A DNA stretch of 61,173 nt, counting the filler, from Bipalium vagum (lineage: Eukaryota), in the NCBI GenBank assembly GCA_037834085.1. It is 3 parts of 3 records of this genome, joined end to end, with 100 filler letters (N's around TTAATTAATTAA, not from the genome) between each part and the next. Parts side by side here need not be neighbours in the genome. Positions count along the whole stretch, not along the records: positions 1 to 20,434 come from JBBMKC010253394.1; 2 more parts are not named here. One strand, written 5' to 3'. Position numbers and translations under genes: made by a program. The notes beneath the pieces are model-generated. The model was given only the letters and a program-made list of their open reading frames with translations. It was not told the DNA's origin and did not search any database. This document shows, in pieces, positions 16,982 to 60,326 of the stretch (positions within the stretch are counted from its first letter, which is position 1; each line of letters begins with the position of its first letter).

Positions 16982-18310
16982 TTACTCGATATGAAACTTA
17001 TGAAACTTAGGTTTAGATTTCAAAATTTCAGAAGTGGAAATATAATCTTTTTCATTATCTTTTAATTTTAGCTTTTGAAGATTTTTAGATGCGTCATTAG
17101 GAGTTATTCTAGTTGATGAGTCGATTTTATAATTATAAAAATTAATTAAGTTTGGTAAAAGATGCAACCATTTTCGATTTCCCTGTTGCGTAAATTTTTT
17201 AAACAAATTTTTTAAGAGTTCTATTGAATCTTTCAATTACCATTCTCTGCTGAATAAATTTCTATTTTATTATCATCACAAAGCATGACGAGTATATAAA
17301 TCGATAACTGTTAGAATTATTTTATAACCTCTTTCTCCAGGGACGAAAATTAAATCTGCAGACCAAATATCATCTTTATTATTAACTTTAACTTTTAAGA
17401 AATTTTCAGTTTTACGAAATCCTTTATGAGGATTATTTGCTAATTGTTTACTTTTTTCAGGAGAAAGAATTTTTGAGTCTTCAAATAGTTTTTCATTAGC
17501 GAGCAACTTTGATTCTCTTGTTAAACTTAATCGTAAAGCAATTTTTTTTATAATTTATTTTACAATTGCTCTTTCAAGTTTTTCTCTTGTAGTTGGATTT
17601 GAAATATTATTCATTTCATGAATCATTTCTACATATGCAATATGCCGATCTTGTAAATCTGTTGAAATATTTTACAACATGTTTTATTTCTGCTTGATCT
17701 ATTCGATTTATTGGAATTGAATCAGGTTTTGGAATTAGAAGAATATTTAAAGTTTTATTTTCTTCATAATTATTTACTATCTCATTATGGTTTTCTAATC
17801 TTTTATCAACATTTGTGTCTGGTTCTGTGAAATTGTGCATTGGATTGGTTTATTTAAAAGGATTTAAAGTTTTTAAATTTCATGCACTTGGATATTTTCC
17901 TGTTGGATATTTATTTTAAAATTTGTTGTTTGTAATTTGAGATTGTAAGTCACCTCCAACTTTGGGAAAAAATTGGAAATTTTTCTTGGATATTTTGAAT
18001 ATTCAAATTTTTATTTTTAGTCGTTAATAAAATTTTTTCAGTCGCTGTATTTTATTGATGTCTTTTTTTAGCCGTTGATTTATTCGTTGATGTCGTTGTT
18101 TTTTCGTTGTTTTCGTTGAATATTTTTCTCATGTATTTTGGTATCTTCATGATGACTTATTTTTTTAGAAATATCTTTTTCACAAATTTCACAATACCAT
18201 TTTCAGTCATTTTTTATAAAAGAAAAAAGGTTTTTGTTTTTCATTTTAAAGAATAAATTTGATTTTTTAGTGATTTAAAAAAGTAGTGAAAGAAAGTAGT
18301 GTGTAATACC
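16982..18310 (-). mobile_element. Polinton/Maverick (adintovirus-like) remnant 1: ZnF-PLA2-integrase pseudogene
   Basis: Decayed frame: WYCEICEKDISKKISHHEDTKIH; GGDLQS; HNFTEPDTNVDKRL...PINRIDQAEIKHVVKY...DRHIA; DDIWSADL...ILTVIDLYTRHA; KWLHLLPNLINFYN...ITPNDAS...KPKFH. Confidence 0.88.
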
Positions 18311-18559
18311 AGTCTTTGAGGAGAGGATTCCCATTTTAAAAAAAAAAACATGCCTGAATATTTTGATAAAATATTTTATGTATTTTAAATATTTGGCACA
18401 TTTTATACATTTTGTTTATGCATTTGTTCAGAAACATCAATTTTTAAGTCATTTTGAATACAAGACTAAAACGTCAATAAAATATCTTTTATTTACATTT
18501 CAAATGATCAAATACATAATAATAAAAAGTCAACCTCATGAACAATCGCAATACTCGAA

Positions 18560-18900
18560 TTCAGTTCCTTGTACTCATGCCTTTATTTTTAATGGCCTCT
18601 TGCATCCTTTTTGGCATGCTTTCATATAGATTTTTAATTTTAGATGTTGGAATCATTGCCCACTGATCCTTCAAATTCTTCCACATGCCTCAATATTTGT
18701 CGGTCTACAGCTATGAACTCTGGCTTTTAGGTCAGCCCACAACGGCTCAATTATATTCAAATCTGGCGATTGACCCAGCCAATCACTGAGTACGCAGATT
18801 TTTTTCATATTCAAAAAAGAAGACACCAATTTTGATTTGTGGCATGCAGCTCCGTCTTGTTGAAATATATTCTGTGCATCATATATTTGGAGCAAATTAT
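18560..18900 (-). mobile_element. Tc1 transposase C-terminal fragment
   Basis: IFQQDGAACHKSK...DWLGQSPDLNIIEPLWADLK. Confidence 0.9.
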
Positions 18901-19689
18901 GGAATTATAACTTAACATCATGTAAAGATATCGCAGCGTAGGACTAGAGGTTATCAAATGTCTCACTAAACATGCTTCTTGAATTGAAAGAGCCAGTATA
19001 AACGAGGTTTTTATAGATTTAACTTGTACATAAATTATGTGAATTTGTTGATTTTAATTTTATCAATATAAGTATGAATTTTTTGTTCAAAAATTGTTTA
19101 AAGGCAATCCCTATTTTTGATCAATTATCTAAGAAACTTAATAAATTAATGGATATATAAATGATCTTATAGTACAGTGAGAATGGCTGGTGGAGATCGC
19201 GCTAAGTCATTTGTGATTGGGTGTGATTTCCAGTAGCAATTTTCACTCTACTATATGGAATTTGGTTTTTGGATCAGAAAAATAGCAAAGGAAATATTTT
19301 TTGAATACCTTATTATTCAGTGTTAAGCTAATCTTATATAATATTTAAAGAATATATTTTAGGTCGTTTCACTGTAAAATGTAGTTCTAGCTTGTTGTGC
19401 TTCCATACTTTCAATACAGTCTTAAATTAATTATCCTTGTATACAATCCCCAAATATTATTGAAAGTTAAGGATATATAAAAAATGTTGTTTATTCAAAT
19501 TTAATTGAAGAATTAAAATAGTAAAAGTTAATAATTAATTATAATTTTTTTACTTTGTGGACTTTAATATAATGTCAATTTTGTTTTATTTTAACAATAT
19601 TACAAACATTTGTTGAGAAATTTCTATGAATACTATTACTGGTTAATAATAAAAATAAATATTTTTTTATTATCGAAAAGTTAATTGAT

Positions 19690-20164
19690 ATGAAAATAAT
19701 GTTATTATTTTTAATATGTTATCTCCCTTTTCTTTGGATATGGACATCATCAACTCAAGTTCAATTATTATCCCGATATATGAAAACTAGCCAGTCAAGC
19801 ACGAATTTAAATATGACAAGTAATTTAGCTGTGGATGGAAAATATATTGAAGAGCTCAATTCACAACCATGCTTTGAAACAGTGCAATCTGATGAAAAAG
19901 GATGGTGGATAGTAGATCTTGGAGACCTTTTCAAAATAAGTCATATTCTTTACTACAACAAAAAGGATTGCTGTGAAACAATGGATATACAAATGAATAT
20001 AGAGTTGTTGAATCATGACAATACATCTACTTACTTATGTCATAAAATAGCTGGTTTTCAATTAATTTATAATATCAGTTGTAATTGGGAAATTGGACGA
20101 TATATCAGAGTATCCTCAACAAATACGAATTCGATTTTCATTTGCGAGTTAGATTGTTTTGGAA
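19690..20164 (+). CDS. Secreted F-type lectin (FTP / F5/8 type C-like) domain protein, first coding exon
   Basis: Hydrophobic signal peptide; SQSST, LAVDG, CFET, WWIVDLG, YNKKDCC, C, GRYIRV, ICELDCFG pattern. Consensus donor A|GTAAGT directly after the domain (phase 1); if unspliced the ORF ends at 20187. Downstream exons not found (gap follows). Confidence 0.85.
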
Positions 20165-20434
20165 GTAAGTCTTTAATTTTTCAATGAGGATTAAAAACGG
20201 TTGAATAAAATTTATTTATTAAAAAAATTAACATAGTGCGACAAATGTATCTTAACTATTCATGAAAAGCTTAACAGGTACAGGGTGTACCAATTCAAGT
20301 TTACATTTTAAAATTTTCAATGAAACAAGCAAAACCTATGAAACGTAGCAATATATTTACATACAGTTTGGTCCAACGAATTGTCCACCCCCTGATAAAA
20401 CAGAAAAAATCCGATAATAACATTTATTAATAAA

Positions 20435-20534: not shown

Positions 20535-22380
20535 ATATAGTTGACAGAGAATAGAAAGTCAGCCACATTAATAGCCATTATAAAAGCTATTGTTCAGTTA
20601 TACTCTCAATTGTCTAAAGATAAAAAATATGTATATCTAATTGTGAATCGTCAGAAGAATCAGTTATACCGGTGCTCATTTATGGAGAATAGAATCTATT
20701 TGAGGAAAAATTCAAATTGACGATCTAAAAGGTATATGTGGTACGGTTCTGCAATCAAGCTTTATGAATAAATACCGAAAACTAATACTCAAAGGAAGAA
20801 TCCCTGATCCATTTTTTGAATTATTAAAAATCAAAACGTAATACCACGGTTTTCCAAAAAGAAGTCTAGGGTGTATAATATAAAAAAACTTTTTTATAAT
20901 TACTTTTTCCTATTATTTATTTTTTTAATGGTTTATTAGTAAAACTTTTTAATTTTTGTCATATTTTTATTATGGCCAATAATTTCTATCATTTTCTTGC
21001 ACTGACCTTATTGGTGAAAATTATTAAATTAATTTTTTTATAGTAATAATAAAAAATTTTAACAATATTTATGAAATATATTTAAAGTGTTGTTAATTAA
21101 AAACTTTTTCTTTTATTTTTTTTATTATTATTTTTTTTATTATTGTTATTATTATTATTATTATTATTGTTATTATTATTATTATTACTGAAGGATCATT
21201 AGGACTGCACAGAGAGTTTATACTATCAAATTTGGACAACATTTAGGCTTCAGAATTAAGTTACATAGATGATGAAAAAAACAGACTTACAAATTCAAAT
21301 CCACCGTGTAAACCGACCGATATTTTTGTCCTGTTAAAATTATTGACTTTTCTGTCATTTCTTACTATGTAAATTAGCGTCCGTGTTTTGAATTTAAATT
21401 GATGACTTTTCCTAATTTTCATCTTCTAAACTTTTTACTGTAAGAATACTTTTTAATTTTTGTAAAATTAAATTTTCTTTTTATGTGTACCCTCAAATAT
21501 TTATAAAGAATTAAGTTTTATTATCTTTACAAAATATCATACAAAAATTAAAACAAATTATGTATAAATAATAATTATTTAAAATTTTATTATTAAATAT
21601 TATTATTATTAGTTAATTAAATGAATAGAAAAATATAAAATATTTATTTACTTTAATAGCAATATAAATAGATATAATTATTTTGTAATATTATCATACA
21701 TATGTTTGAGAAAATTAATTGATTTCATTTATTTAGAGCCATTAAATTATCCACAGTTTCCATTTGTTTTCTGAAATAAACGTACGTATTTCCATAGTAA
21801 TAGATAAAACAAACTTTAATTTCATTACCAAAATCCTTTTATCAAATATAATAAATTGTGGAAAAAATTATTTATTAAAACAAATAATTCAAATAAATCA
21901 AATCTTTACTCATTAAAAGGGAAGTTTATTGATGGTAAAATTTATTATTAATTAATAAATACAGTCGGAGTATTTTAGCTCTAATTCTTTATTCAGCAAT
22001 TTTTCTCTATTGCATTTTCAATTTTATGCTTTGGTCTAGACTGGGAAATTTATTTTTTGCCAATCATGTCCAAAATAATTTAGGGAATATTTCCGAAAAA
22101 ATTATTTGTATACATTGACTAATTTAATACGGGAAATCGACCGAGTTCAAAGCATAGGTGAGCTGGGATATAAGCTGCAATTCAACAGAATAATTACGTC
22201 GATGAGATGATATATATGTTTAGATAGATATAACGGTTTACAGAATTTACAGATTTGAAGAGATATTGCAATTAAATTCATTAATTGCTCCTCGGAATCA
22301 AGATTTCTTTTAATTGTTAATATTAAAGATGGTAAAAATTCATAATAATAAAAAAAATATTTGTAATGTGTTTTTTAATT

Positions 22381-23430
22381 ATTTATTAATGAATTTAGAA
22401 AGTAGACAGCTTTAATTGAAAAATAAATAATTATAGATATTTTTTGTAACAGAAATAAATATTTACTTCAACAAATAATTAAAAGCTGTTGCTAATATTT
22501 GAAAAAAATTATTCTCCAACTCTTTCTTCAGTTAAACAGATTATCTATTTTTTATTAAATTATTTGTTTAAATTAAAAAAATTTTTATTACTTTATTTGT
22601 TTATATTAAAATTAATTTGTGAAGATATCAGAAAGTTATTTTTTATTTTTGGTAATAATATACCGTAAAATGGAAATTCGGAAAAATTGTATTTTTTTTT
22701 ATTTATTTACAAATTTAGAAAATATACATCTTTTAATTGAAAAATAAATAATTATAAATATATTTTAAAAAGAATTAAATATTTATTTTTACATATTAAT
22801 CAAAGCTTTTCCTAATATTACAAAGAAATGTTCTCCAGTTTTATTTCAGTTAAACAAATTATTTATTTTTTATTAAATTATTTCTTTAAATTAAAATTTT
22901 TTTATTAAGTCATTTTTGTTTAATTAAAATTATTTTTTATTAAATTTTTAATTAAAAAGAATTTTTATAGATATCAGAAAGTTATCATTTTTTTCAGTAA
23001 TAATATACCGCAAAATGAAAATTTGGAAAAGTTGAGATATTTTTTTTATTTTTTATTTATTTACGAATTTAGAAAGTAGACATCTTTTAATTGAAAAATA
23101 GATAATTATAGATATATTTTTAAGAAGAATTAAATATTTATTTTTATACATTAATCAAAGCCTTTCCTAATATTACAAAAAAGTCTCAATTTTTATATTA
23201 GTTAAATAGATTATCTATTTTTTTACTAAATTATTTGTTTAAATTAAAAATAATTTTATTAAGTCTTTAGTTTACTTAATTAAATTTTTTAAAATTTTTT
23301 TTGTTAAATTTGTTTAAATCCAAATTCCTTTTTATTTATTTGTTTGTTTAAATTAACAATACTCGTATCGATATGAGAAATTATAATTTCAGTAATCATA
23401 TACTGTAAAAATGAAAATTTGGAAAAATTA
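22381..23430. repeat. Diverged tandem triplication, ~320-370 bp unit
   Basis: Units begin near 22381, 22701 and 23055 with atttattwacraatttagaaartakaca...ttaattgaaaaata and end near gtaataatataccgyaaaatg. Confidence 0.9.
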
Positions 23431-46014: not shown

Positions 46015-46700
46015 TGATTTTATAAAACAAAGTTTTTTGTAACTCATTTTCATAAAATTTACCTAATATTTTTTCTCCTTTAAAATTTACAATTCCCTAA
46101 ACAATTGGATTTGTAAAATAAATTTCATTAATAATAAAAATTTCATTTGTCCATTTTGCTGCATATCTTTTTGTCAAATATATTTGTTTATTCTTAAAAA
46201 TTCTTACATGACAATATTAAATCTTTTTCGTTTTTCTCTTGGAGTTGGATTTTGAATATTGTTCATTTCATGAATCATTTCTACATCTGCAACATGTCTA
46301 TCTTTTATGTCTGTTGACATATTTTACATCATGTTTCATTGCTGCTTGATCAACTCGATTTATTGGAATTGAATCAGGTTTAGGAATTGAGAGAATTGAT
46401 AAATCTTGATTTTCATTATAATTTTCTTCTATTTAATTATAGTTTTCTAAACGTTTATCAGCATGAGTCCCTGACCCGACGAAATTCGCAAAAATGGTGA
46501 CAAAAATTGAAAAAAACTTTGAAAATTTTTCAAGTAGTGATTTTTGATGAAAAAATATATAAAAAGTTGAAAATTTCTAGTAGTGATTTTTTATGAAAAA
46601 TGAAAAAATTGACTTAAAAAGTAGTGAAAAAAGGTGGTTTTAATGGTGGTGTTTTTTTTTCAAAAGTTGAAAAACAAGTAGTTAAAAAACTACTAAAATG
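46015..46700 (-). mobile_element. Polinton/adintovirus-like remnant 2: PLA2 joined to integrase C-terminus (core deleted)
   Basis: ANFVGSGTHADKRL...PINRVDQAAMKHDVKY/STDIKDRHVADVEMIHEMNNIQNPTPREK, then KRYAAKWTNEIFIINEIYFTNPIV*GIVNFKGEKILGKFYENELQKT; clearly homologous to 17580-17840. Confidence 0.88.
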
Positions 46701-48577
46701 AGTAATTTTTCGCTGAAAAACAAAAAATGAAGTTTTTTTCAATGGTGAAAAAAAGAGATGAAAAAACATTCCTAGACTGCTGGGCTCAGTTCGCGTCATA
46801 TTACAAATACTGCTATCTCTGAGCAACTTTAAAGGCTCTAATAATTAGGAAAGCTTGAACGAAGCTAAACCGTAGGATCGTTTTGTTTTGTTTAATATTT
46901 TTTTATTATTAATATTTAATAATTAATATTTAAGTTTAATTCTTGTTTATCGATTGCTACCTTTAAATATTTTGTTAATTCATTATTTGATTAATATTCT
47001 ACTGAATATAACCTAAGACATTTGAAACATTTTAGACATTGTTGTGATCCTTTTGATTGAGTTTGACTATTTTATGTAATTTCATCATTGAGATTTTGTG
47101 AGTTATTGGGTTATAAATACAAGTTATTGCTTTACTGATTGTTGTTATATCGCACCACCTAAGAGATGGAGTCAGGTTTAAAATTTAATACATAAATACA
47201 CTAAATAAATATTGATTCCGAAACGCAAAATGAAAGTGACACTCAAACTATAAAGTTTAAACAATAAAAAGAAAAAGTATATTTCAACAGTTGACAAGTC
47301 TCAAAATATTGTAATTTGTTCCAAAATCTGATCTCGTCCTACTGAAATTAGTGATAGAAATAAATTAAATTAAATGACAGACAGTAAATGATAATATCGG
47401 TAGTGTATATAACAGCTATATTAAAGTCGATACATACAACGGAAATCTAACTGATTTTCTATCAAATTATTATATTATAAATTATAATATTATAATGTGC
47501 GCACATGGTTTCACAGAATAAGTAATGATGATTTGCCTTCCCTCTCCCAGTAAAAGGTGAACAAGTTGTGATGTTCTACAGGTCATTTATTTAGGCAACA
47601 ATTTTATAGTTAAAGATAAAAAATAAATTAAACAGTATCAGAATACGCACAGTTTGAGCACCATTAACCTAGAGAGCTTTTGATAAGTGGAAAGGTAATT
47701 GGAACGATAATACAGAGTAACAATAAAAGACCAATGGTGGCCTGGACTTAGGTATGAAATAAAAATAGCTAAAATTATATATGTATGAAGCTGTTGACTA
47801 AGTAATTCAAAAAGTTAAATTAGCAGAAATTTAAAATGAAATTCAAGAAAAAAATCGGATAACAGGAGAAACACTCATTGATAATGTTGAAAAAGTGAAG
47901 CATTTCTTACAAAATCATAAAATTAATCTACAATTAGAGTTAAAATTGCTACAAAAATATTTTTAAGTTAATAAATTTAAAATGAAATGTGTTAAATGTT
48001 TATATCTATCGTTGGTAAACATGAAATATAAACAGAAAAAATCTTTCTTAAAAAATATAATTCTAATACATAGGAATAGCTATGGCTATAGTCTAATTTT
48101 TATTTGATGACCCATTCAAGTCAAAAGATTTTCAACTGCTAATTTATAAATTAATTGTATCTAATAAATTGATAAATGTTATTTTTCTACACTACAAACT
48201 TAATGAATATCCTGTTACATAAATTAAAACCATGTAAATAAAATTTGGTATTATTGTCATCTATTTTAAAAATGATTAAATGTTTTTTAAAAATATATTA
48301 ATATTAAAACTAGACGCCATATAATACTTTTGTTTAAATTATATGCATTTTACTTTTAGTTACAAACTGTTTACAAACGTAAATCTTTTAAACTTTGTCG
48401 TTTTGTGCAAATCTGTTGATTATTTATATTTTATTTTTATGAATTTTAAAAAAATTATGGTTGTGTATATAAATATATATTAGTGGTTTTATTTGTGATT
48501 AAGATAAAATAAAAATTGATATTATTAATGTTTATTTAGTAAAAATAATTATTTTAGATTCAAATCAAACAATTGGT

Positions 48578-49348
48578 ATGAGTACAAATAACTCACTTTT
48601 GTCGACAAGAGTTGCAAATTATAATTTGTCATTCAGTTATCCAAACATGACCAATATGTGTCAAAAAGAATTGAATTATAGTAATTCATTTTCGTTGAAT
48701 TCTTGTACAAAATCTTGGAATAATTATCAGAACAATAATATATTAAAAAAGTCAATAATACCAGAGAGTAACCATAAAAATCTTGAATCTGTTTACAATT
48801 GTGATCTTCAGCCATTAACATGGTTACAAAAGGAGAGCATAATTGATATTGACCCATTGGTTGATATTGAAGACATTAAAGAGGATTCTATCAGCATAAA
48901 TATGACTCCTGGATATGAAGATCTGGTCAATCCACAGATAAATCATGCCAGAGTTGAAGTGGAATCCCAAGAAAATTCAAATGTACACGATTTTGTGAGA
49001 TTTCAGGCAATGAGGAACAGTAAAAATAATGGAAATCGCGTAGCACTTCGAAACAATAACTCCTTTGTATCAATTAACGGGACAATTAATGATCAAAATC
49101 AAGTTATTAATAGAACAAATTATAGTCATCAAGCAAGTGGATTCATCAAACCAAATCTGAGTTATACACAATTGATTTTCATGGCAATAGAGACATGTAA
49201 AGATCGAGCTATGACTGTCAATGACATTTATCAATGGTGTGAGATTAATTATCCCTATTATAAGCACATCGGTCCCTCCTGGAAGAACTCATTGCGACAT
49301 AATTTGTCGATCAATAAGTCTTTTCGTCGAATGCCACGAGACGGACAA
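48578..49348 (+). CDS. FoxN2/3: FoxN2/3 exon (most of the forkhead domain)
   Basis: ORF 48578; donor CAA|GTAAGC. Confidence 0.95.
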
Positions 49349-52300
49349 GTAAGCAGTTTTTTTCAATAGTAATTTCATAAAGTATTACTTTATCCATTTA
49401 TCATGTTTAATTAATTTATCAATATTAGAGAAATTTGTATTTTTTAATATTGATTAATGGATTTATTAATATTTTGATCAAAGCAATTTTTATTATTCTC
49501 TTTTTTGAATCAACGCATCATAAAATTACAATTATGATTTTTAATCTTTATATAAAAAAAATCTTTGAAAATATTTCGGTTTTTGTAAGTATTCTCATTC
49601 TATGTCGAAAAATTTGTTTTGAAAAAATGATATGAACTTATATCATTTGTTTTTGTGCCCCCTCACAATCTTAACGATAAAATGTTATTGTTTGATAAAA
49701 GCAGAAATTTTTGAAGATTGATTTCAAATATGATTTTAAATCACTTTTTAGTGTCTGATGACATTAAAATTTTCCCAATGTTTTTTTATCGATCGTAAAC
49801 GTTGAATATTTTACAGTTGTATCAAAACACGTTCTACCAAAAATAAAGTAAGGTAGTTCTGACGTAAATTACTGACAGTAAAGACGACTGGAAAATGTTA
49901 ATTCAAGGAATCGTTCCAGTTTTGAAAAAACTCTTAATATGGATATTTTATGTGAATAACCAATGTTAATGTGTGATAATCATATTTAGAGCTCTGTGGT
50001 CAATTATGAATTCAACACCAGTGATGATATATGCGACGAAGCATTGTCTTATCGAGACAATAAGGTGATCCATCTCAATTCATCGCTGTAGCACCGTAGC
50101 TAGCACGACAATTTATACCTTTTTAAAATCATTTTTATTTTCACCTTTATATCTTACAATAATACCATTGTTATGATCACTATTTATATTATTATCACGA
50201 AGAGTGCTGCTAGCTTTGCAATTTATCTGGATTTATGTATTTAAATTCTTTGTGTTGTACTTGTCTTTCTGTTGTTATCTTACTGTGTAATCATCGTTTA
50301 CTTTTTGTGTGAACACTTTATAGTGAATTTTTCAACTTACTAATAGCAATAGTTAATTTACATAAATAACAATTACAGTATCTTTGGGGAAGATGAAATG
50401 ATGGGTGAGCAAAATTTTGAGTTCTTTTCCAGAATAAGAAAATGCTTCAATTGTTTTATACATATTTTTAATTATTCGAATTTAACCTGATATTTTTTGG
50501 TTGTAAAAAAAATTAATTGATATTTTACATTTTTATTGATTGGAAATTCGTTTCAAATGTCTTATGCCTACATTATTATTTGTAGAATTCTTCTTATATG
50601 CTTTTCCTGTATTTTTCTCTCATTGAATTGATTTTTTATTACTCAAAATTGATATTTTTGTCTGTACTCAGTTTTAAAAAGTGAGCTCTAAGTGACAACT
50701 CAGTTTTTGCTTATTCTAAGATTGAAAGTAGTAATTAATACAAACTTGAATCCTGTCCGTGGAATATATAAAACAATTTTAAAATATTAATCTTTGAGAG
50801 CTGAAGTCAGATAAAGGTATTCGCTTCATCATTCTCCATTGGTATTCTACACAGTTTTCACTAATATTTTTAGAATTGATGATAAAGGAAATGCATTGTT
50901 ATTAGTCCGTTTATGTGAACCGTAAAGAATCTATTGCCTTTCAAAATTAATCAAAGTACGTAATTTTTTAGCAAGGGGGTCCAGGTAGAGGAGCTTATTG
51001 GGTAGTCGACGACAAGGAACGGAAAAACCTTCTCGACTCCATTTATCGTGCTCAACAGGTTATGCCCCTTAGTGACAGAAATGGGCAACGAGTTGATGCT
51101 TCATATTCTGTTATTATAAACCCACCGAAAAACGGACCTATGTTGCGAATTGATGGTCGCTTCACGGATGCTTCAACCTATTTACAGTCGAAGCGCATCG
51201 ATGACGACATTTCAAACGATAATCAAAATGGTCCCAACCAAGACTCGACTACATACGAAAATACATCGGATCTTTTGACTGTAACGGAAAACTCAGACAT
51301 TGAGTATGCATCCATGATGCAAAATCTAACATCCAATCGTAGTCACGGTGACACGATTGATGGATCCATTAAATTATCAACAAGGTATAAGTGATAAAAT
51401 TTGATTGCAAGATTTCATTACAATCTATTTATATGTTTGTGCCTTTCAGTTACAATAGCAACTCCTCTAGAATGAAAGGTACAGTAAAAATGTTTCCTAT
51501 AACGCGTTTAGTTTTATCAAAGATATTTTCTAGAACCTGAGCAGGACATACTTAAACCAAAATTGAAAAATCGCCGCAAATCAAAACACGAAAAAGGTAG
51601 ACGTCAATAAAAGAAAATTTTCCCATTACTTGATCGTTTCAGTTCGCAGTTGTAGAGAGATCGAATCATCTACGAAAGATGGTTTTGATACCGTTGGTTG
51701 CAAGTACCCAAATAGAACTAGTAATTCCTCATCATCAGACAAACCCTCAACACCTGGAATGACCAGTGTCAATGTCATTGTTGCTCCTCATTTCGATCAC
51801 ATTTATGCCAGATATCAACAGTTCCTGCCACCAGCTATTTCCACTAACATGGACAAAGCCGTCTTTGCTCCGTACAGCGAAGTCGATTCGAATCCCGACG
51901 CAGAATTTTTGAAACACGGATACCGTGAAGATGACGATGATGAAGAAGAGGACAATGATGAGGACGATGAGCCAAGGACCAGTGGTTGTAATCTTGCCCA
52001 TGAGTCCTGTGGATCTGTGCCAGCAGACGTTGGAACTGGTCTCGACATGGATGGGGTGACGGTAAAATTGGAAAAGGTAGAATCCGGCCAACATTTAGAA
52101 CAACAGATGGAACCAGGATTAATGCGTCACTACCGTGAAAAAGATACCATGCGTAATAAACATCAAGGCGATTGTGGAAAAGGAGGATTGCGGCTTTTGT
52201 GGAATGGACGAAACAACAAATTGAAATCTTCCACTGTTGCGTTTACTAGACAGCGCAAGGTACGCAAAGTTCTCAGAAATCGCGTCCGACGAAATCTGGG

Positions 52301-52622
52301 GCAGCGACAAGTAGGAGGTGATGGAGCAAAACTCGATGTAGAAGTGAAACAGGAAATGATGGAGATGCCTGTAGAAGAGATGATAATGGAGATGAAAGAG
52401 GAATTGAGCGATGGTTACGGAACAGATTCCACAATGCCGATGGTGGTCCGACAGCAAACTCTAAAACGAAAGAATAATGTGACAACTAGTAAAAGGCGAA
52501 CCAATCGAGTCGTCAGACTCAAATCGTTGAAACGAAATGAAGCGTTGACGAAAACTGCTTACCAAGAGAAACGATTGCGTTCAAAGCGAAAGAAAACTCG
52601 TCCTCTGCGCATTGATGAGTAA
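48578..52622 (+). CDS. FoxN2/3: Forkhead box transcription factor, FoxN2/3 subfamily, 5 coding exons, 751 aa
   Basis: join(48578..49348,50972..51384,51450..51478,51534..51596,51643..52622) = 2256 nt, all GT-AG and in frame. Forkhead domain KPNLSYTQLIFMAIE...WKNSLRHNLSINKSF...GRGAYWVVD. FoxN2/3 hallmarks: DLQPLTWLQ, LIFMAIE, RKNLLDSI, DHIY. An acceptor at 48557 suggests an upstream exon. Confidence 0.9.
50972..51384 (+). CDS. FoxN2/3: FoxN2/3 exon (forkhead wing)
   Basis: Acceptor tttttag; QGGPGRGAYWVVDDKERKNLL; donor AG|GTATAA. Confidence 0.92.
51450..51478 (+). CDS. FoxN2/3: FoxN2/3 29-nt micro-exon
   Basis: tttcag acceptor, G|GTACAG donor, restores the frame. Confidence 0.75.
51534..51596 (+). 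CDS. FoxN2/3: FoxN2/3 63-nt exon (basic, NLS-like)
   Basis: EPEQDILKPKLKNRRKSKHEK; ttctag acceptor, GTAGAC donor. Confidence 0.8.
51643..52622 (+). CDS. FoxN2/3: FoxN2/3 terminal exon
   Basis: tttcag acceptor in frame with ORF 51630-52622; DHIY motif, acidic tract, basic C-terminus. Confidence 0.9.
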
Positions 52623-56960: not shown

Positions 56961-58785
56961 TAACCAAGATTATGAGAAGAGGACGAAAGTGTACTCGCTA
57001 ATATGGGCAGAGCTAATTCAGTGGAAAAAAGAGAAGCAGGAAAGAAGGAGGATTCAGAAATATAGCTAATTAAAGGATGCATGAAAAGTCAAGTGCCTGA
57101 AGGATGGTAGAAGACATAATCGTTTCAATAAAACCAAAATTTTAATGAATACACATTTTTAATCAACATTATAAATATAAAGACAAGTTTTTTACCTCCA
57201 AAATGAAAGAATCATTACAAAAATTAAAAAATATTTTATTGTACAAATATTCAACATATTTTATTATAGTTAGTTCGTTCTTCATAAGGTAAAGAATATA
57301 AAAGGTGAAAGTCAAAATGTATTTTTTTCAAACAAATCAGTAGTAAATAACATAACTCCTCCGTTGGAAAAGATTATTGGCACATACGCTTATTCGTTCG
57401 TCAAAAACATGTTTACAAATAAAATCCCCTTTGTGTGGCACATAAAATATACTAAAAATCAAAAATATTAAAAAATCAAAATCAAAAAATTTAAAACTGA
57501 AAAAATCAAAATTTTTCTTAAAAAATGGAAACCAAAAAAAACGATTTAAATAACCTATCCAATCTAGAAACAAATAAAATACAAAATAAATTTCCACAAC
57601 GTAAATATTATGAAATATATTTACGAGCAAAAAATTTTAATTTAGAAGAAAAAGATTTTAAATCTTATTCTAAAGATTTATTATGGTTAATAGATAACTG
57701 TACATTTGAACCATATAAAAATAAAATAAAAGAACAACATGAAAATCTAAATAGTATTATTTTTAATTACTCGAAAATAGATGAAAAATTTCAGACTAGG
57801 TAAAATTTTATTTTTTTTTATGTGAGCATGTTTTATTTTGAAATGAATTTTAAAAATGCTATTGAATTTGTTTCAGTAAAAACTGTTCAGATTAATCTAT
57901 TTGTAATTCAATAACTTTTCATTATATTTTTATTTATTAAATAATAAAATAATTAATTTTAGTGCGAATATATAGAATATTTTTATAGATTAATGTTCTT
58001 AATTTATAGTTTATAGCTAATTTATTTTAATTTTAAAACGATAGTTTATATTGCTTAATATATTTTAAATATTATTGAAGAGGAAGTAAATTGTCTTTTT
58101 CATTTTTAGAAATGTATAATATTGCAAAGTTAATTTTATAAATGGTTTTGTTATTTTCCATCTTATTACTTTTTTAAATTCTATAATAAGTTTAATATTT
58201 ATTTTTATTAAATGAAAAAACATTCAGTTTTTTATTTTATTTGTTAGTTAAATTAATGTTCTCTAAATTATCACAATATATTATTTTATCCACAAGTTTG
58301 TTATCTTGAAATTCCGCCCTACGTTTGTTTATTTTTTGGATTATTTAAAAAACAGATTTAAATATAAATTTTCATTAATTAATATTTTATTTTAAATTTT
58401 AGATATTTTAGATAAATGGGTAAGGTTTTAGAAAAAAATATCAATTTACAAAATCGATTAGATTCAAATAATGATGTGGAAAAATAATAATTGGTTAAAA
58501 CTTAGAAAAAATATTTTTGATAATTCTATATAGTAACTTTTGTGGAATGGCATTCCACTTTTTAGCCTTATTTTAGTATTTCTGTTTTTTAAATCATTGT
58601 ATATAAATGATTTAATAAATAAAATATTAAATAAATTTTTTATTTTAAATTTCTCAAATTTTTTCTTAAAAAATGTCGAGTGAAATCACAAAGGATAAAT
58701 GACAAAATATTATTTAAATAGATAAACCTAAATATATAACATTTAATCGAGAAAAATATTATCTCTCTAAAAAATAAGAAATGAA

Positions 58786-59280
58786 ATAAAAGATAAATTT
58801 GAGGATCACAGCACAGCTGTAAACGCCGAAAAACCAAAAGTTGGTGGTGTTCTTCCATTAATTCCAATACTTGGAGCAATCTTTGCAGGACTAGGAGCAG
58901 CAGGTGGAGTTGCAGGAGGAATTGCAACAGCTGTTCAAAATGCAAAAGAAGCAGCAAAAAATAATGCAGAGAAAGAAAAGATTGAATTGGAAAAATAGAA
59001 ATTAGAAATGGAAGTTGAAAAACTTAAACCTAAAGAGAAACAAAAATCTGGAGCTGGACTTTACTTCGATCCATATTTTGGAAAAAGGTTGAGAGATACT
59101 ATTTTAAATAGTTTAAAATATAAAAGTTTACAGAAATCTGAAAGGAAAGAATTAAAAAAATTATTGCTTTGTAAAAATAAAATTAAAATAATTAAACAAG
59201 GATCTGGGCTAGAGCCGAAGACTTGTTTTCTCAACTCAAAATTTTTTTTCCAATTAAAATTTTTCCCAACAATATTTTAA
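58786..59280 (+). pseudogene. Adenovirus pX-like (adintovirus 'X' domain) protein
   Basis: KPKVGGVLPLIPILGAIFAGLGAAGGVAGGIATAVQNAKEAAK...(one stop)...KSGAGLYFDPY. Confidence 0.75.
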
Positions 59281-59492
59281 AATTTAATTTAAAAAATGAT
59301 GTTCTTATCTTTTTGTCGAAGAATTTTTAGCTGAAGAATTTAATTTATCTTATAGAGAGCTAATGAGATAATTCAATTTGAATGAAATAAGTATGTATAC
59401 TGAATATTTAGATGAGGATGAATTATTTATTGAACATGATTAGTAAACTTAAACGAAAAAAATTAAAATATTTAAAATTTTATTTTTAAAAA

Positions 59493-59945
59493 ATGCAAGC
59501 TTTGCATACTGAAAGTGTTAGGACCGTAGGCTCGCTTTTGAAACCAAAGGTTTCGAGTCGATTTAAGATTTTAAAAACAAATACATTACTAAATTTTTTA
59601 TATAAATATGGAATTAACTCAACATCAATTTTTGATTTAATTGATATTGCTGAAAATTTAGAATTCCCATTAAAAGTTTTAATGAAGAATGAAGTAACAG
59701 AAAAACATCTCGAAAAAGAAATTCCAATAATTATTAATTATCAAAATACAAATCAAAAAGGAATTCATTGGGTTGGATATTATAAAACTTTTTACTTTGA
59801 TTCTTATGGTTTACCACCATTTGAAGATTAAGAAAAACATGTTAAAGAATAAAATAAATTTGATTTTCAATCTGAAACAGACTTAGAATATTATGGACAA
59901 TTATATTTATATGTTTTGTATCAACTTTTTCAGGGAAAAATTTGA
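59493..59945 (+). pseudogene. Adenain-type (C5) cysteine protease
   Basis: IIINYQNTNQKGIHWVGYYK...YFDSYGLPP; the same frame continues past stops to FQSETDLEYYGQLY, where the catalytic CG reads YG. Confidence 0.88.
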
Positions 59946-60006
59946 GAAAATTTAGAAGAAATAGAATATTTTATTTTTGAAAAGTTAAAATTAAAAATAA
60001 AAAAAT

Positions 60007-60326
60007 ATGGGTGATCAAGTATTTTTAATATTGCTGCAAATGGGGAATATATTTATACTAAAAATAAACCACCAATTTATTATGATGATAATGATAATGA
60101 AGAAATAAACGAAATAAATGAAGAAATTCAAAATATTCAAAATGACTCAGAAAATAAATTCTTAAATGTTACTGGAGATTTAATGAAAGGAATTTTAAAT
60201 ATGAATAATAATAAAATAATAAATACACCTGAAGCAAAAGATGATAATGATATTGTAAATTTAAAATTTGTAAGATCAATAGAAAAACAACTTCAGACTA
60301 AAATTGAAAATATTATAAAAAATTAG
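60007..60326 (+). pseudogene. Putative fibre/adhesin-like Polinton protein
   Basis: KFLNVTGDLMKGILNMNNNKIINTPEAKDDNDIVNLKFV followed by a coiled-coil-like segment. Confidence 0.45.

What the first reader, a model, noticed from the sequence alone, without database searches (positions are those of the whole stretch)
16982..18210. Endogenous Polinton/adintovirus-like ZnF-PLA2-integrase polyprotein
Seen: on the minus strand, a CxxC...H...H finger, a parvovirus-VP1u-type PLA2 domain (NFxGPGT-like loop, DxAAxxHD, RHxAD) and an RVE integrase follow one another. From the PLA2 C-terminal helix (DRHIA...NPTTREKLERAIVK) to DDIWSADL the frame is unchanged apart from one TAA. A second diverged copy at 46015-46490 also has PLA2 directly followed by the integrase C-terminus, so the linkage occurs twice. 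Known: parvoviral PLA2 mediates endosomal escape, and in alpha-type adintoviruses PLA2 is described as fused to a pX-like domain. Inference: this lineage encodes the membrane-lytic enzyme and the integrase as one virion-packaged polyprotein. It may be cleaved by the element's adenain at the linker IALRLSL, which is two point changes from a GLG site. That would couple entry to integration. I cannot verify whether this architecture is already catalogued.
Basis: partly seen in the sequence, partly recalled or inferred. Interest (0 to 1): 0.78.

Follow-up and report, generated by a model that had tools for sequence, protein, structure and literature searches.

The report
Viral lipase fused to integrase
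This is a broken remnant of a virus-like jumping element whose membrane-breaking enzyme and DNA-inserting enzyme are encoded as one protein, an arrangement that is intact in many environmental relatives and suggests how such viruses carry their integrase into a new cell.

Summary
The locus is a dead copy of a Polinton (Maverick/adintovirus-like) gene: C2H2 finger, parvovirus-type PLA2 and RVE integrase in that order, broken by frame changes, stops and a core deletion. 126 of 327 natural proteins retrieved carry PLA2 then integrase in one ORF, six with the same finger. Such ORFs lie in elements with packaging ATPase, jelly-roll capsid and protease genes. The TAA at 17555-17557 falls inside the last PLA2 helix, and other copies in run X1 read a sense codon there. 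New here: in 13 of 44 stop-free relatives the integrase is out of frame (11 at -1, 2 at +1) just after the conserved K-x-x-hydrophobic-G-x-G. All 13 have an A-run there; 12 have no Met before the first catalytic Asp. That resembles gag-pol recoding but is unproven. Virion packaging and cleavage are inferred, and the junction fits the adenovirus protease consensus in only 5 of 83. Copy 2 shows linkage only, since its junction is deleted. Eight literature searches found no description of the fusion.

The parts
18122..18202 (-). C2H2-type zinc finger remnant; the upstream ATG is in another frame
   Evidence: tblastn with P0003 (46% identity, E=0.017) and P0045 (E=1.8e-4); weak Pfam C2H2 hits below cut-off
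17661..17963 (-). PLA2 N-half, decayed (3 stops, Ca-loop and HD motif altered, 16-residue insertion shared with copy 2), in a different frame from its neighbours
   Evidence: 19.4 bits
17546..17665 (-). PLA2 C-terminal helices, with the TAA at 17557-17555 inside the last helix
   Evidence: 34.2 bits; other copies read a sense codon
17522..17545 (-). decayed K-x-x-hydrophobic-G-x-G motif (KIALRLSL), candidate maturation-protease site
   Evidence: alignment; motif in 83 of 102 fused proteins
17441..17521 (-). linker, open in the integrase frame; resembles in-frame linkers of P0036, P0328, P0351
   Evidence: best score 35, reached by 22 of 200 shuffles; the two other frames score 26 and 25 and carry stops
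17276..17440 (-). RVE integrase N-terminal part with the first catalytic Asp (DDIWSAD)
   Evidence: 65.0 bits; Pfam rve E=0.0049
17196..17277 (-). two short out-of-frame integrase pieces (one with the catalytic Glu, ERFN) after a deletion near 17282 that removes the second catalytic Asp
   Evidence: 36 loose ends at 17282 in run X1
17000..17218 (-). integrase core C-half; the C-terminal tail is missing
   Evidence: 47.1 bits
46213..46492 (-). copy 2: PLA2 with HD and second Asp kept; changes frame at the same place as copy 1
   Evidence: 31.0 and 26.5 bits
46025..46207 (-). copy 2: integrase C-terminal tail (to ELQKTLF), no chromodomain seen; junction and core deleted
   Evidence: 52.0 bits
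59595..59939 (+). Polinton maturation-protease remnant, probably a third fragment of the same kind of element
   Evidence: 39% identical over 123 residues to the protease ORF of L003 (E=4e-22), which lies beside an in-frame PLA2-integrase ORF
60147..60311 (+). remnant like the ORF L003:87-998 (fibre-like by recalled motif, not tested)
   Evidence: tblastn E=1.3e-4

Best explanation
The locus is a decayed genomic copy of a Polinton-type virus gene that encoded one precursor: C2H2 finger - parvovirus-type PLA2 - K-x-x-hydrophobic-G-x-G - linker - RVE integrase without chromodomain. Shown: the architecture exists intact in many natural proteins with PLA2 and DDE residues conserved, inside elements with ATPase, capsid and protease genes; the window's integrase groups with them. 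Inferred: (a) the window's own family was fused in frame (about 0.75; shifted about 0.2); (b) the precursor is a virion core protein, the PLA2 part acting at endosomal entry as in parvoviruses and carrying the integrase into the particle (about 0.6); (c) the element's adenain/Ulp1-fold protease cuts at the G-x-G during maturation and frees the integrase (about 0.5); (d) the finger helps bind the genome for packaging (about 0.35). The window copy itself can do none of this.
For: 4 of 4 hits spanning the junction carry both Pfam domains above cut-off. 126 of 327 retrieved proteins have HDxxY then the first integrase Asp in one chain; 6 have an N-terminal C2H2 finger, 17 a CxxC..CxxC ribbon. H120, D121, Y124, D136 (PLA2) and D227, D289, E323 (integrase) are invariant in 46 aligned proteins. 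The AlphaFold model of P0003 (mean pLDDT 82.6) has a low-confidence stretch at 173-186 right after the motif, matches the foamy-virus intasome (Z 20.5, rmsd 3.7, 250 aligned) and, at middling level, rice PLA2 (Z 7.0, rmsd 4.1, 94 aligned). L023 has the fused ORF between an A32 ATPase and a jelly-roll capsid gene; L001 adds a pPolB hit. L003 has the fused ORF beside a Peptidase_C5-like ORF (E=0.021). 36 of 49 called junctions are open in frame and none has an in-frame stop. The window integrase nests in a clade (support 0.957) of 53 tips, 47 fused proteins, next to the C2H2-bearing ones (support 0.64). In run X1, 62 contigs and 99% of the depth at 17556 carry another letter that gives a sense codon. 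PLA2 as entry protein of these viruses is already proposed (PMC8502044, PMC4642659; passages).
Against: No intact copy of the window's own family could be read (no genome held). One contig of run X1 (record 1, depth 297) is five letters longer than the window across 17487-17634, not a multiple of three, so the family's frame across the junction is not settled. The adenovirus consensus fits 5 of 83 junctions; the residue in the P4-like place is K in 51 of 83; 19 of 102 fused proteins lack the motif. The protease call for L023 is weak (best PDB hit adenain, E=0.13). Protein searches were built to find fusions, so the counts are not prevalence; 113 of 148 new hits of the profile search were integrase only, and many related integrases have their own Met. 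The linker similarity is not significant (22 of 200 shuffles). Both window copies change frame at the same place inside PLA2, which is unexplained. No packaging, cleavage or activity data exist here.
Confidence: 0.7

Rival explanations
1. Gag-pol-like recoding. The PLA2 protein with a short basic tail is the main product, and the PLA2-integrase precursor is made at a lower rate by slippage (-1 ribosomal frameshift or polymerase slippage) on an A-run just after the G-x-G. This seems to hold for part of the relatives (about 0.55) and may hold for the window's family (about 0.2).
For: Of 44 stop-free loci with both domains covered, 13 shift frame at the junction (11 at -1, 2 at +1; one-sided p=0.011) and 9 show a shift elsewhere in about 1.2 kb, several of them upstream of the start of the query ORF. 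In 33 of the 44 that parsed, 13 of 13 shifted junctions have an A-run of 6 or more, against 1 of 17 in-frame ones (Fisher p=1.2e-7), while 78 such runs lie outside the junction. Over all 49 called junctions the split is 13 of 13 against 10 of 36 (p=4e-6). Four -1 loci have A_AAA_AAC in the PLA2 frame (L043, L056, L069, L080). In 12 of 13 shifted loci no Met precedes the first catalytic Asp. L043 is in the window's clade. Record 1 of run X1 has a net length difference that is not a multiple of three.
Against: Downstream structure is mostly absent: z below -1.5 in 2 of 10 -1 loci, a pseudoknot above all shuffles in 1 of 10. The two informative PLA2-anchored loci are not -1: L084 is +1, and L083 stays in frame through two A-runs. 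Five loci have A_AAA_AAC yet are in frame. Loci are related, so the p-values overstate. The window has no A-run of 6 between the motif and the linker.
Confidence: 0.2
2. The fusion is real but the chain is not cut. The G-x-G is a helix-capping or hinge feature of the PLA2 module, and the protein works as one unit or the PLA2 part is only a packaging tether.
For: Poor fit to the adenovirus consensus (5 of 83); 19 of 102 lack the motif; the linker is as short as 2 residues in 15 of 83.
Against: A similar glycine motif also stands just before the PLA2 domain in 17 of 20 PLA2-only proteins, nearly all from one organism, and GG-type motifs in 38 of 102 fused ones, as expected for sites that excise the domain. 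PLA2 catalytic residues are invariant. The elements keep a protease-like gene.
Confidence: 0.3
3. The junction shifts in relatives are not programmed: they are homopolymer errors or decay at a lysine-coding A-run in copies whose integrase is dead.
For: Both directions occur (+1 in L032, L061, L078, L084), many runs are 7-10 long, stimulatory structures are rare, and in-frame and shifted loci are mixed on the tree.
Against: The shifted loci are otherwise stop-free and full length; 78 runs outside the junction go with few shifts; the -1 bias is 11 to 2.
Confidence: 0.4
4. PLA2 and integrase were separate genes brought together by deletion in a dead copy, with the TAA as the real end of PLA2.
For: The window copy is heavily decayed; many related Polintons have a stand-alone integrase with its own Met.
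Against: The TAA lies inside a helix that continues in all aligned relatives, is not shared by other copies, and no called junction has an in-frame stop (0 of 49).
Confidence: 0.03

Closest known systems
Alpha-class adintoviruses / group 2 Maverick-Polintons with PLA2X (Starrett et al. 2021, PMC8502044; 10.64898/2026.06.19.733378)
   Same: Parvovirus-type PLA2 gene and RVE integrase in elements with A32 ATPase, jelly-roll capsid and protease; PLA2 proposed as a membrane-active virion protein.
   Different: There PLA2X is a separate gene ending in a pX-like domain, and the integrase is described with a C-terminal chromodomain (PMC11071296). Here the integrase follows the PLA2 in the same ORF or in an overlapping shifted frame, and only 6 of 102 fused proteins show a chromodomain-like end.
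Retroviral Gag-Pol (established knowledge, recalled)
   Same: Integrase joined to a structural protein, in frame (foamy-type Pol aside) or by frameshift, and released by the viral protease; the integrase fold matches PFV, RSV, MMTV and Ty3 integrases.
   Different: A DNA virus with no reverse transcriptase; the carrier is a lipase domain; the protease is a separate cysteine protease; recoding and cleavage are untested.
Parvovirus VP1u PLA2 (PF08398)
   Same: GPGT loop, HDxxY and second Asp conserved in intact relatives.
   Different: Fused to an integrase, not to the capsid protein.
Proposed adintovirus Penton and Hexon-Adenain -1 frameshift products (PMC11071296, section 16)
   Same: Predicted slippery sites in the same virus group.
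   Different: Other genes; that section does not mention a PLA2-integrase product.

Membership tests
Polinton/Maverick (Polintoviricetes) | RVE integrase | tested here: met
   window pieces 65.0 and 47.1 bits; intact relatives pass the rve cut-off; fold matches PFV intasome
Polinton/Maverick (Polintoviricetes) | protein-primed PolB | tested here: inconclusive
   none found in the window; PF03175 hit in L001 (E=4e-19); the 1343-aa ORF of L023 gave no PolB hit
Polinton/Maverick (Polintoviricetes) | A32 packaging ATPase and double jelly-roll capsid | tested here: inconclusive
   met in relatives L001, L023, L084; not found in the window
Polinton/Maverick (Polintoviricetes) | adenain/Ulp1-type maturation protease | tested here: inconclusive
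   remnant at 59595-59939 matches the L003 ORF, whose own family calls are weak (Peptidase_C5 E=0.021; adenain E=0.13 for the L023 ORF); it lies 41 kb from the finding
Polinton/Maverick (Polintoviricetes) | terminal inverted repeats with 6-bp target duplication | tested here: inconclusive
   none evident around the three remnants; the copies are fragments
Adintovirus as defined in PMC11071296 | integrase with C-terminal chromodomain | tested here: not met
   copy 2 tail and nearest relatives end near ELQKTxF; chromodomain-like end in 6 of 102 fused proteins; present in the other clade (L009, L084)
Adintovirus as defined in PMC11071296 | PolB with OTU domain and BLAST-recognisable hexon | not tested
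   no reference adintovirus proteins were compared
PLA2X gene (PMC8502044) | parvovirus-type PLA2 domain | tested here: met
   PF08398 above cut-off in P0003-P0006, L003, L009, L022, L023; window pieces hit the derived profile
PLA2X gene (PMC8502044) | C-terminal pX-like domain | tested here: inconclusive
   in-frame forms continue into the integrase; shifted forms end in a short basic tail; no pX profile was run
Adenovirus protease substrate | [MLI]xGx|G or [MLI]xGG|x (consensus recalled) | tested here: not met
   5 of 83 junctions
Classical -1 ribosomal frameshift cassette | X_XXY_YYZ heptamer in the upstream frame | tested here: met
   10 of 10 -1 loci against 8 of 36 in-frame loci; not seen in the window copy
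Classical -1 ribosomal frameshift cassette | downstream stem-loop or pseudoknot | tested here: inconclusive
   2 of 10 with z below -1.5; 1 of 10 in a simple pseudoknot scan

The most novel reading that the evidence does not exclude
A large branch of Polinton viruses has converged on the retroviral Gag-Pol strategy: the integrase is made as the C-terminal part of the virion's membrane-lytic PLA2 core protein, either in frame or through programmed slippage on an A-run that sets the ratio of lipase to integrase. It is packaged, and released at a G-x-G site by the viral protease, so that entry and integration are delivered by one precursor.
Probability: 0.38. Interest if true: 0.82.

Novelty: new variant of a known kind. 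Interest (0 to 1): 0.64.

Why it matters
Polintons are thought to be integrating viruses, but no particle has been observed (stated in 10.64898/2026.06.19.733378 and PMC8097293) and how the integrase reaches a new nucleus is open. A conserved PLA2-integrase precursor gives a concrete route and single-gene tests. It also means that gene callers split or truncate the integrase in the shifted elements, where the first Met lies after the first catalytic Asp, and that fused forms are filed under unhelpful names (YMD3-like protein in Mya arenaria, transposase InsO family). The window copy itself is an inactive relic.

Tried and rejected
No whole genome is held for the window, so copies could not be counted in an assembly. 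Single-protein scans of viral contigs with P0001 and P0005 found no relative; an integrase DNA pattern found 0 matches. PLA2 patterns gave 3 loci, one unrelated (L082). Sequencing runs: one listed, share 0.18, no RNA holder listed, so nothing on expression. BFVD's top 50 showed integrases only, best a 327-aa MELD virus integrase; no PLA2-integrase protein was listed, which does not exclude one. No terminal repeats around the remnants. A first junction script called only 30 of 81 loci; the second called 49; one search dropped 11 of 44 loci whose motifs it did not find. The tblastn shift count reads through shifts in decayed loci (0 junction shifts in 27 loci with stops, though one search shows L032 and L041 shifted). 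Earlier scan findings: nothing by sequence, place or full word set; eight Polinton notes without this fusion. Rejected: copy 2 as independent proof of fusion; the TAA as a gene end; strict adenovirus cleavage specificity. No complex prediction was run, since no binding claim is made.

Full report
Setting. The window is AT-rich eukaryotic DNA (GC 0.18-0.34), probably animal (inferred from a Forkhead exon at 48503-49366, E=1e-23, and Tc1/mariner remnants). No genome is held.

Observation. Six-frame translation and tblastn with natural relatives map, on the minus strand: a C2H2-type finger (18202-18122), a PLA2 N-half (17963-17661) in another frame, the PLA2 C-terminal helices, a linker and the integrase start in one frame (17659-17276) with one TAA at 17557-17555, two short out-of-frame integrase pieces, and the rest of the core (17218-17000). 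Profiles from 46 natural proteins score these pieces 19-65 bits against at most 1.6 in 5 shuffled windows. Copy 1 has lost the PLA2 GPG loop, the HD aspartate, the second PLA2 aspartate, the second integrase aspartate and the integrase tail. Both copies share a 16-residue insertion and a frame change at the same place after the HDxxY tyrosine; I cannot explain the latter.

The fusion is real in nature. A search with the junction (P0001 residues 1-124) among proteins of 392-2000 residues gave 4 hits among 242 candidates, all with PF08398 and PF00665, above both cut-offs; P0003 begins with a similar finger. Further searches gave 327 proteins in all: 148 hit both profiles and 126 have HDxxY followed by the first integrase Asp motif; 6 have a C2H2 finger and 17 a CxxC..CxxC ribbon. 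These searches favour fusions: 113 of 148 new hits of the whole-library profile search were integrase only, and many relatives start the integrase at its own Met. PLA2 and DDE residues are invariant in 46 aligned proteins. The AlphaFold model of P0003 has mean pLDDT 82.6 and a disordered stretch at 173-186; it matches the PFV intasome (Z 20.5, rmsd 3.7, 250 aligned) and, at a level the tool calls middling, rice PLA2 (Z 7.0, rmsd 4.1, 94 aligned). Two Mya arenaria proteins with both domains are named YMD3-like, so the architecture occurs in an animal genome and sits in databases without being named as such.

Element type. L023 (14.3 kb) carries the fused ORF between an A32 ATPase and a jelly-roll capsid gene, with a protease-like ORF whose best PDB match is adenain at E=0.13; its 1343-aa ORF gave no PolB hit. 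L001 has pPolB, ATPase, capsid and the same junction, with a frame change inside PLA2. L003 has the fused ORF beside a Peptidase_C5-like ORF, and that ORF is 39% identical to window 59595-59939. On an integrase tree of 220 sequences (four odd fused proteins, short fragments and loci without a parsed integrase left out; midpoint root) the window falls in a clade of 53 tips (support 0.957) with 47 fused proteins, 2 in-frame loci, one -1 locus and 2 N-terminally incomplete proteins, next to the C2H2-bearing ones (0.64). Fused forms also occur in a second, chromodomain-bearing branch, so fusion is not confined to one clade; I did not test monophyly.

The TAA. It lies inside the last PLA2 helix. 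In run X1, 62 contigs and 13,759 of 13,877 depth at 17556 carry another letter that gives a sense codon; 36 loose ends at 17282 show that other copies hold sequence deleted here; other copies also differ inside the decayed motif (17527; 10 contigs, all the depth there). Against a settled answer: record 1 (depth 297) covers 17487-17634 with 153 letters against 148. The window linker in its present frame resembles in-frame linkers of P0036, P0328 and P0351, better than the other two frames do, but 22 of 200 shuffles reach the best score. I put in-frame fusion for this family at about 0.75.

The junction motif. 83 of 102 fused proteins have K-x-x-hydrophobic-G-x-G (or GG) at the end of PLA2; 5 of 83 fit the adenovirus protease consensus, which I recall and did not look up. 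Cleavage by the element's own protease is plausible but would need another specificity.

A second way of joining. Junctions were called in 49 of 81 loci: 36 open in frame, 10 at -1, 3 at +1, none with an in-frame stop. By tblastn, 71 loci cover both domains; 44 are stop-free, of which 13 shift at the junction (11 at -1, 2 at +1) and 9 show a shift elsewhere. In 33 of the 44 that parsed, all 13 shifted junctions have an A-run of 6 or more, 1 of 17 in-frame ones does, and 78 such runs lie outside (Fisher p=1.2e-7, or 4e-6 over all 49 junctions; loci are related, so these overstate). In 12 of 13 no Met precedes the first catalytic Asp, so the integrase needs recoding, splicing or a non-AUG start. 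Against a classical -1 cassette: downstream structure in 2 of 10, pseudoknot in 1 of 10, five in-frame loci with A_AAA_AAC, L084 at +1 and L083 in frame through two runs. I put programmed slippage in at least some relatives at about 0.55.

Mechanism. Shown: one translational unit for PLA2 and integrase in Polinton-type elements. From established knowledge: parvoviral PLA2 acts in entry, and the same role is proposed for Polinton PLA2 (PMC8502044, PMC4642659). Inferred: packaging of the precursor, release at the G-x-G, genome binding by the finger.

Literature. Searches. Seen as term passages only: PMC8502044 (plus supplement search and the text of Fig S2), PMC4642659, PMC3671162, 10.64898/2026.06.19.733378 (39), PMC5803895, PMC11071296 (section 16 whole), PMC11131425, PMC11161782, 10.64898/2026.10.13.758929 (62), PMC8097293, PMC11296320. 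None of what I saw describes a PLA2-integrase fusion or a frameshift between these genes. Not seen and possibly relevant: Starrett Fig S1 (slides, unreadable), figures, the supplements and GenBank annotations of Buck et al., bioRxiv supplements, Repbase, and subscription journals.

Verdict. Observation partly confirmed, interpretation partly supported. A new variant of a known kind: an ordinary dead copy that points to a widespread, apparently undescribed PLA2-integrase precursor, with a testable gag-pol-like arrangement in relatives. Interest 0.64.

Noticed in passing
window 58771-60326 (+): Probable third Polinton remnant: glycine-rich amphipathic ORF pieces ending in GSG/GAG motifs, a protease remnant and a fibre-like piece, in an order like L003.
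   Followed up: partly
window ~17661 and ~46317 (-): Both copies, 17% apart, change frame by +1 at the same place after the HDxxY tyrosine and share a 16-residue insertion; either a lesion in a shared ancestor or a family-wide feature. No listed piece of run X1 spans it.
   Followed up: partly
window 48503-52622 (+): Host Forkhead (FoxN-like by recalled motif) gene in at least three exons; Pfam Forkhead E=1.2e-23.
   Followed up: no
window 19630-20187 (+): ORF with an F5/8 type C (galactose-binding) domain, E=2e-9; L023 also ends with an F5/8 C gene, but tblastn showed no link between them.
   Followed up: partly
window 1472-2166, 10933-11250, 12122-12487, 18400-18940, 30581-30889: Tc1/mariner-type transposon remnants; the one at about 18400-18700 is very deep in run X1.
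   Followed up: no
window 22367-23429: Degenerate tandem repeat of about 320-nt units, 79% identical.
   Followed up: no
L058:7579-8925 and L062:4593-5957: Single ORFs that appear to join a protease-like N-terminus to integrase and chromodomain, a different integrase fusion.
   Followed up: no
L084 (genome contigs, titled as a bacterial MAG): An apparently intact Polinton (ATPase, capsid, ribbon-PLA2, integrase in +1 frame) inside a bacterial bin, probably mis-binned.
   Followed up: partly
P0056-P0083 (Lottia gigantea): Many PLA2-domain gene models with close similarity to the fused family's PLA2, probably Polinton copies called as host genes.
   Followed up: no
L046:128-348: The G-x-G motif region is duplicated in tandem before the -1 junction.
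   Followed up: no
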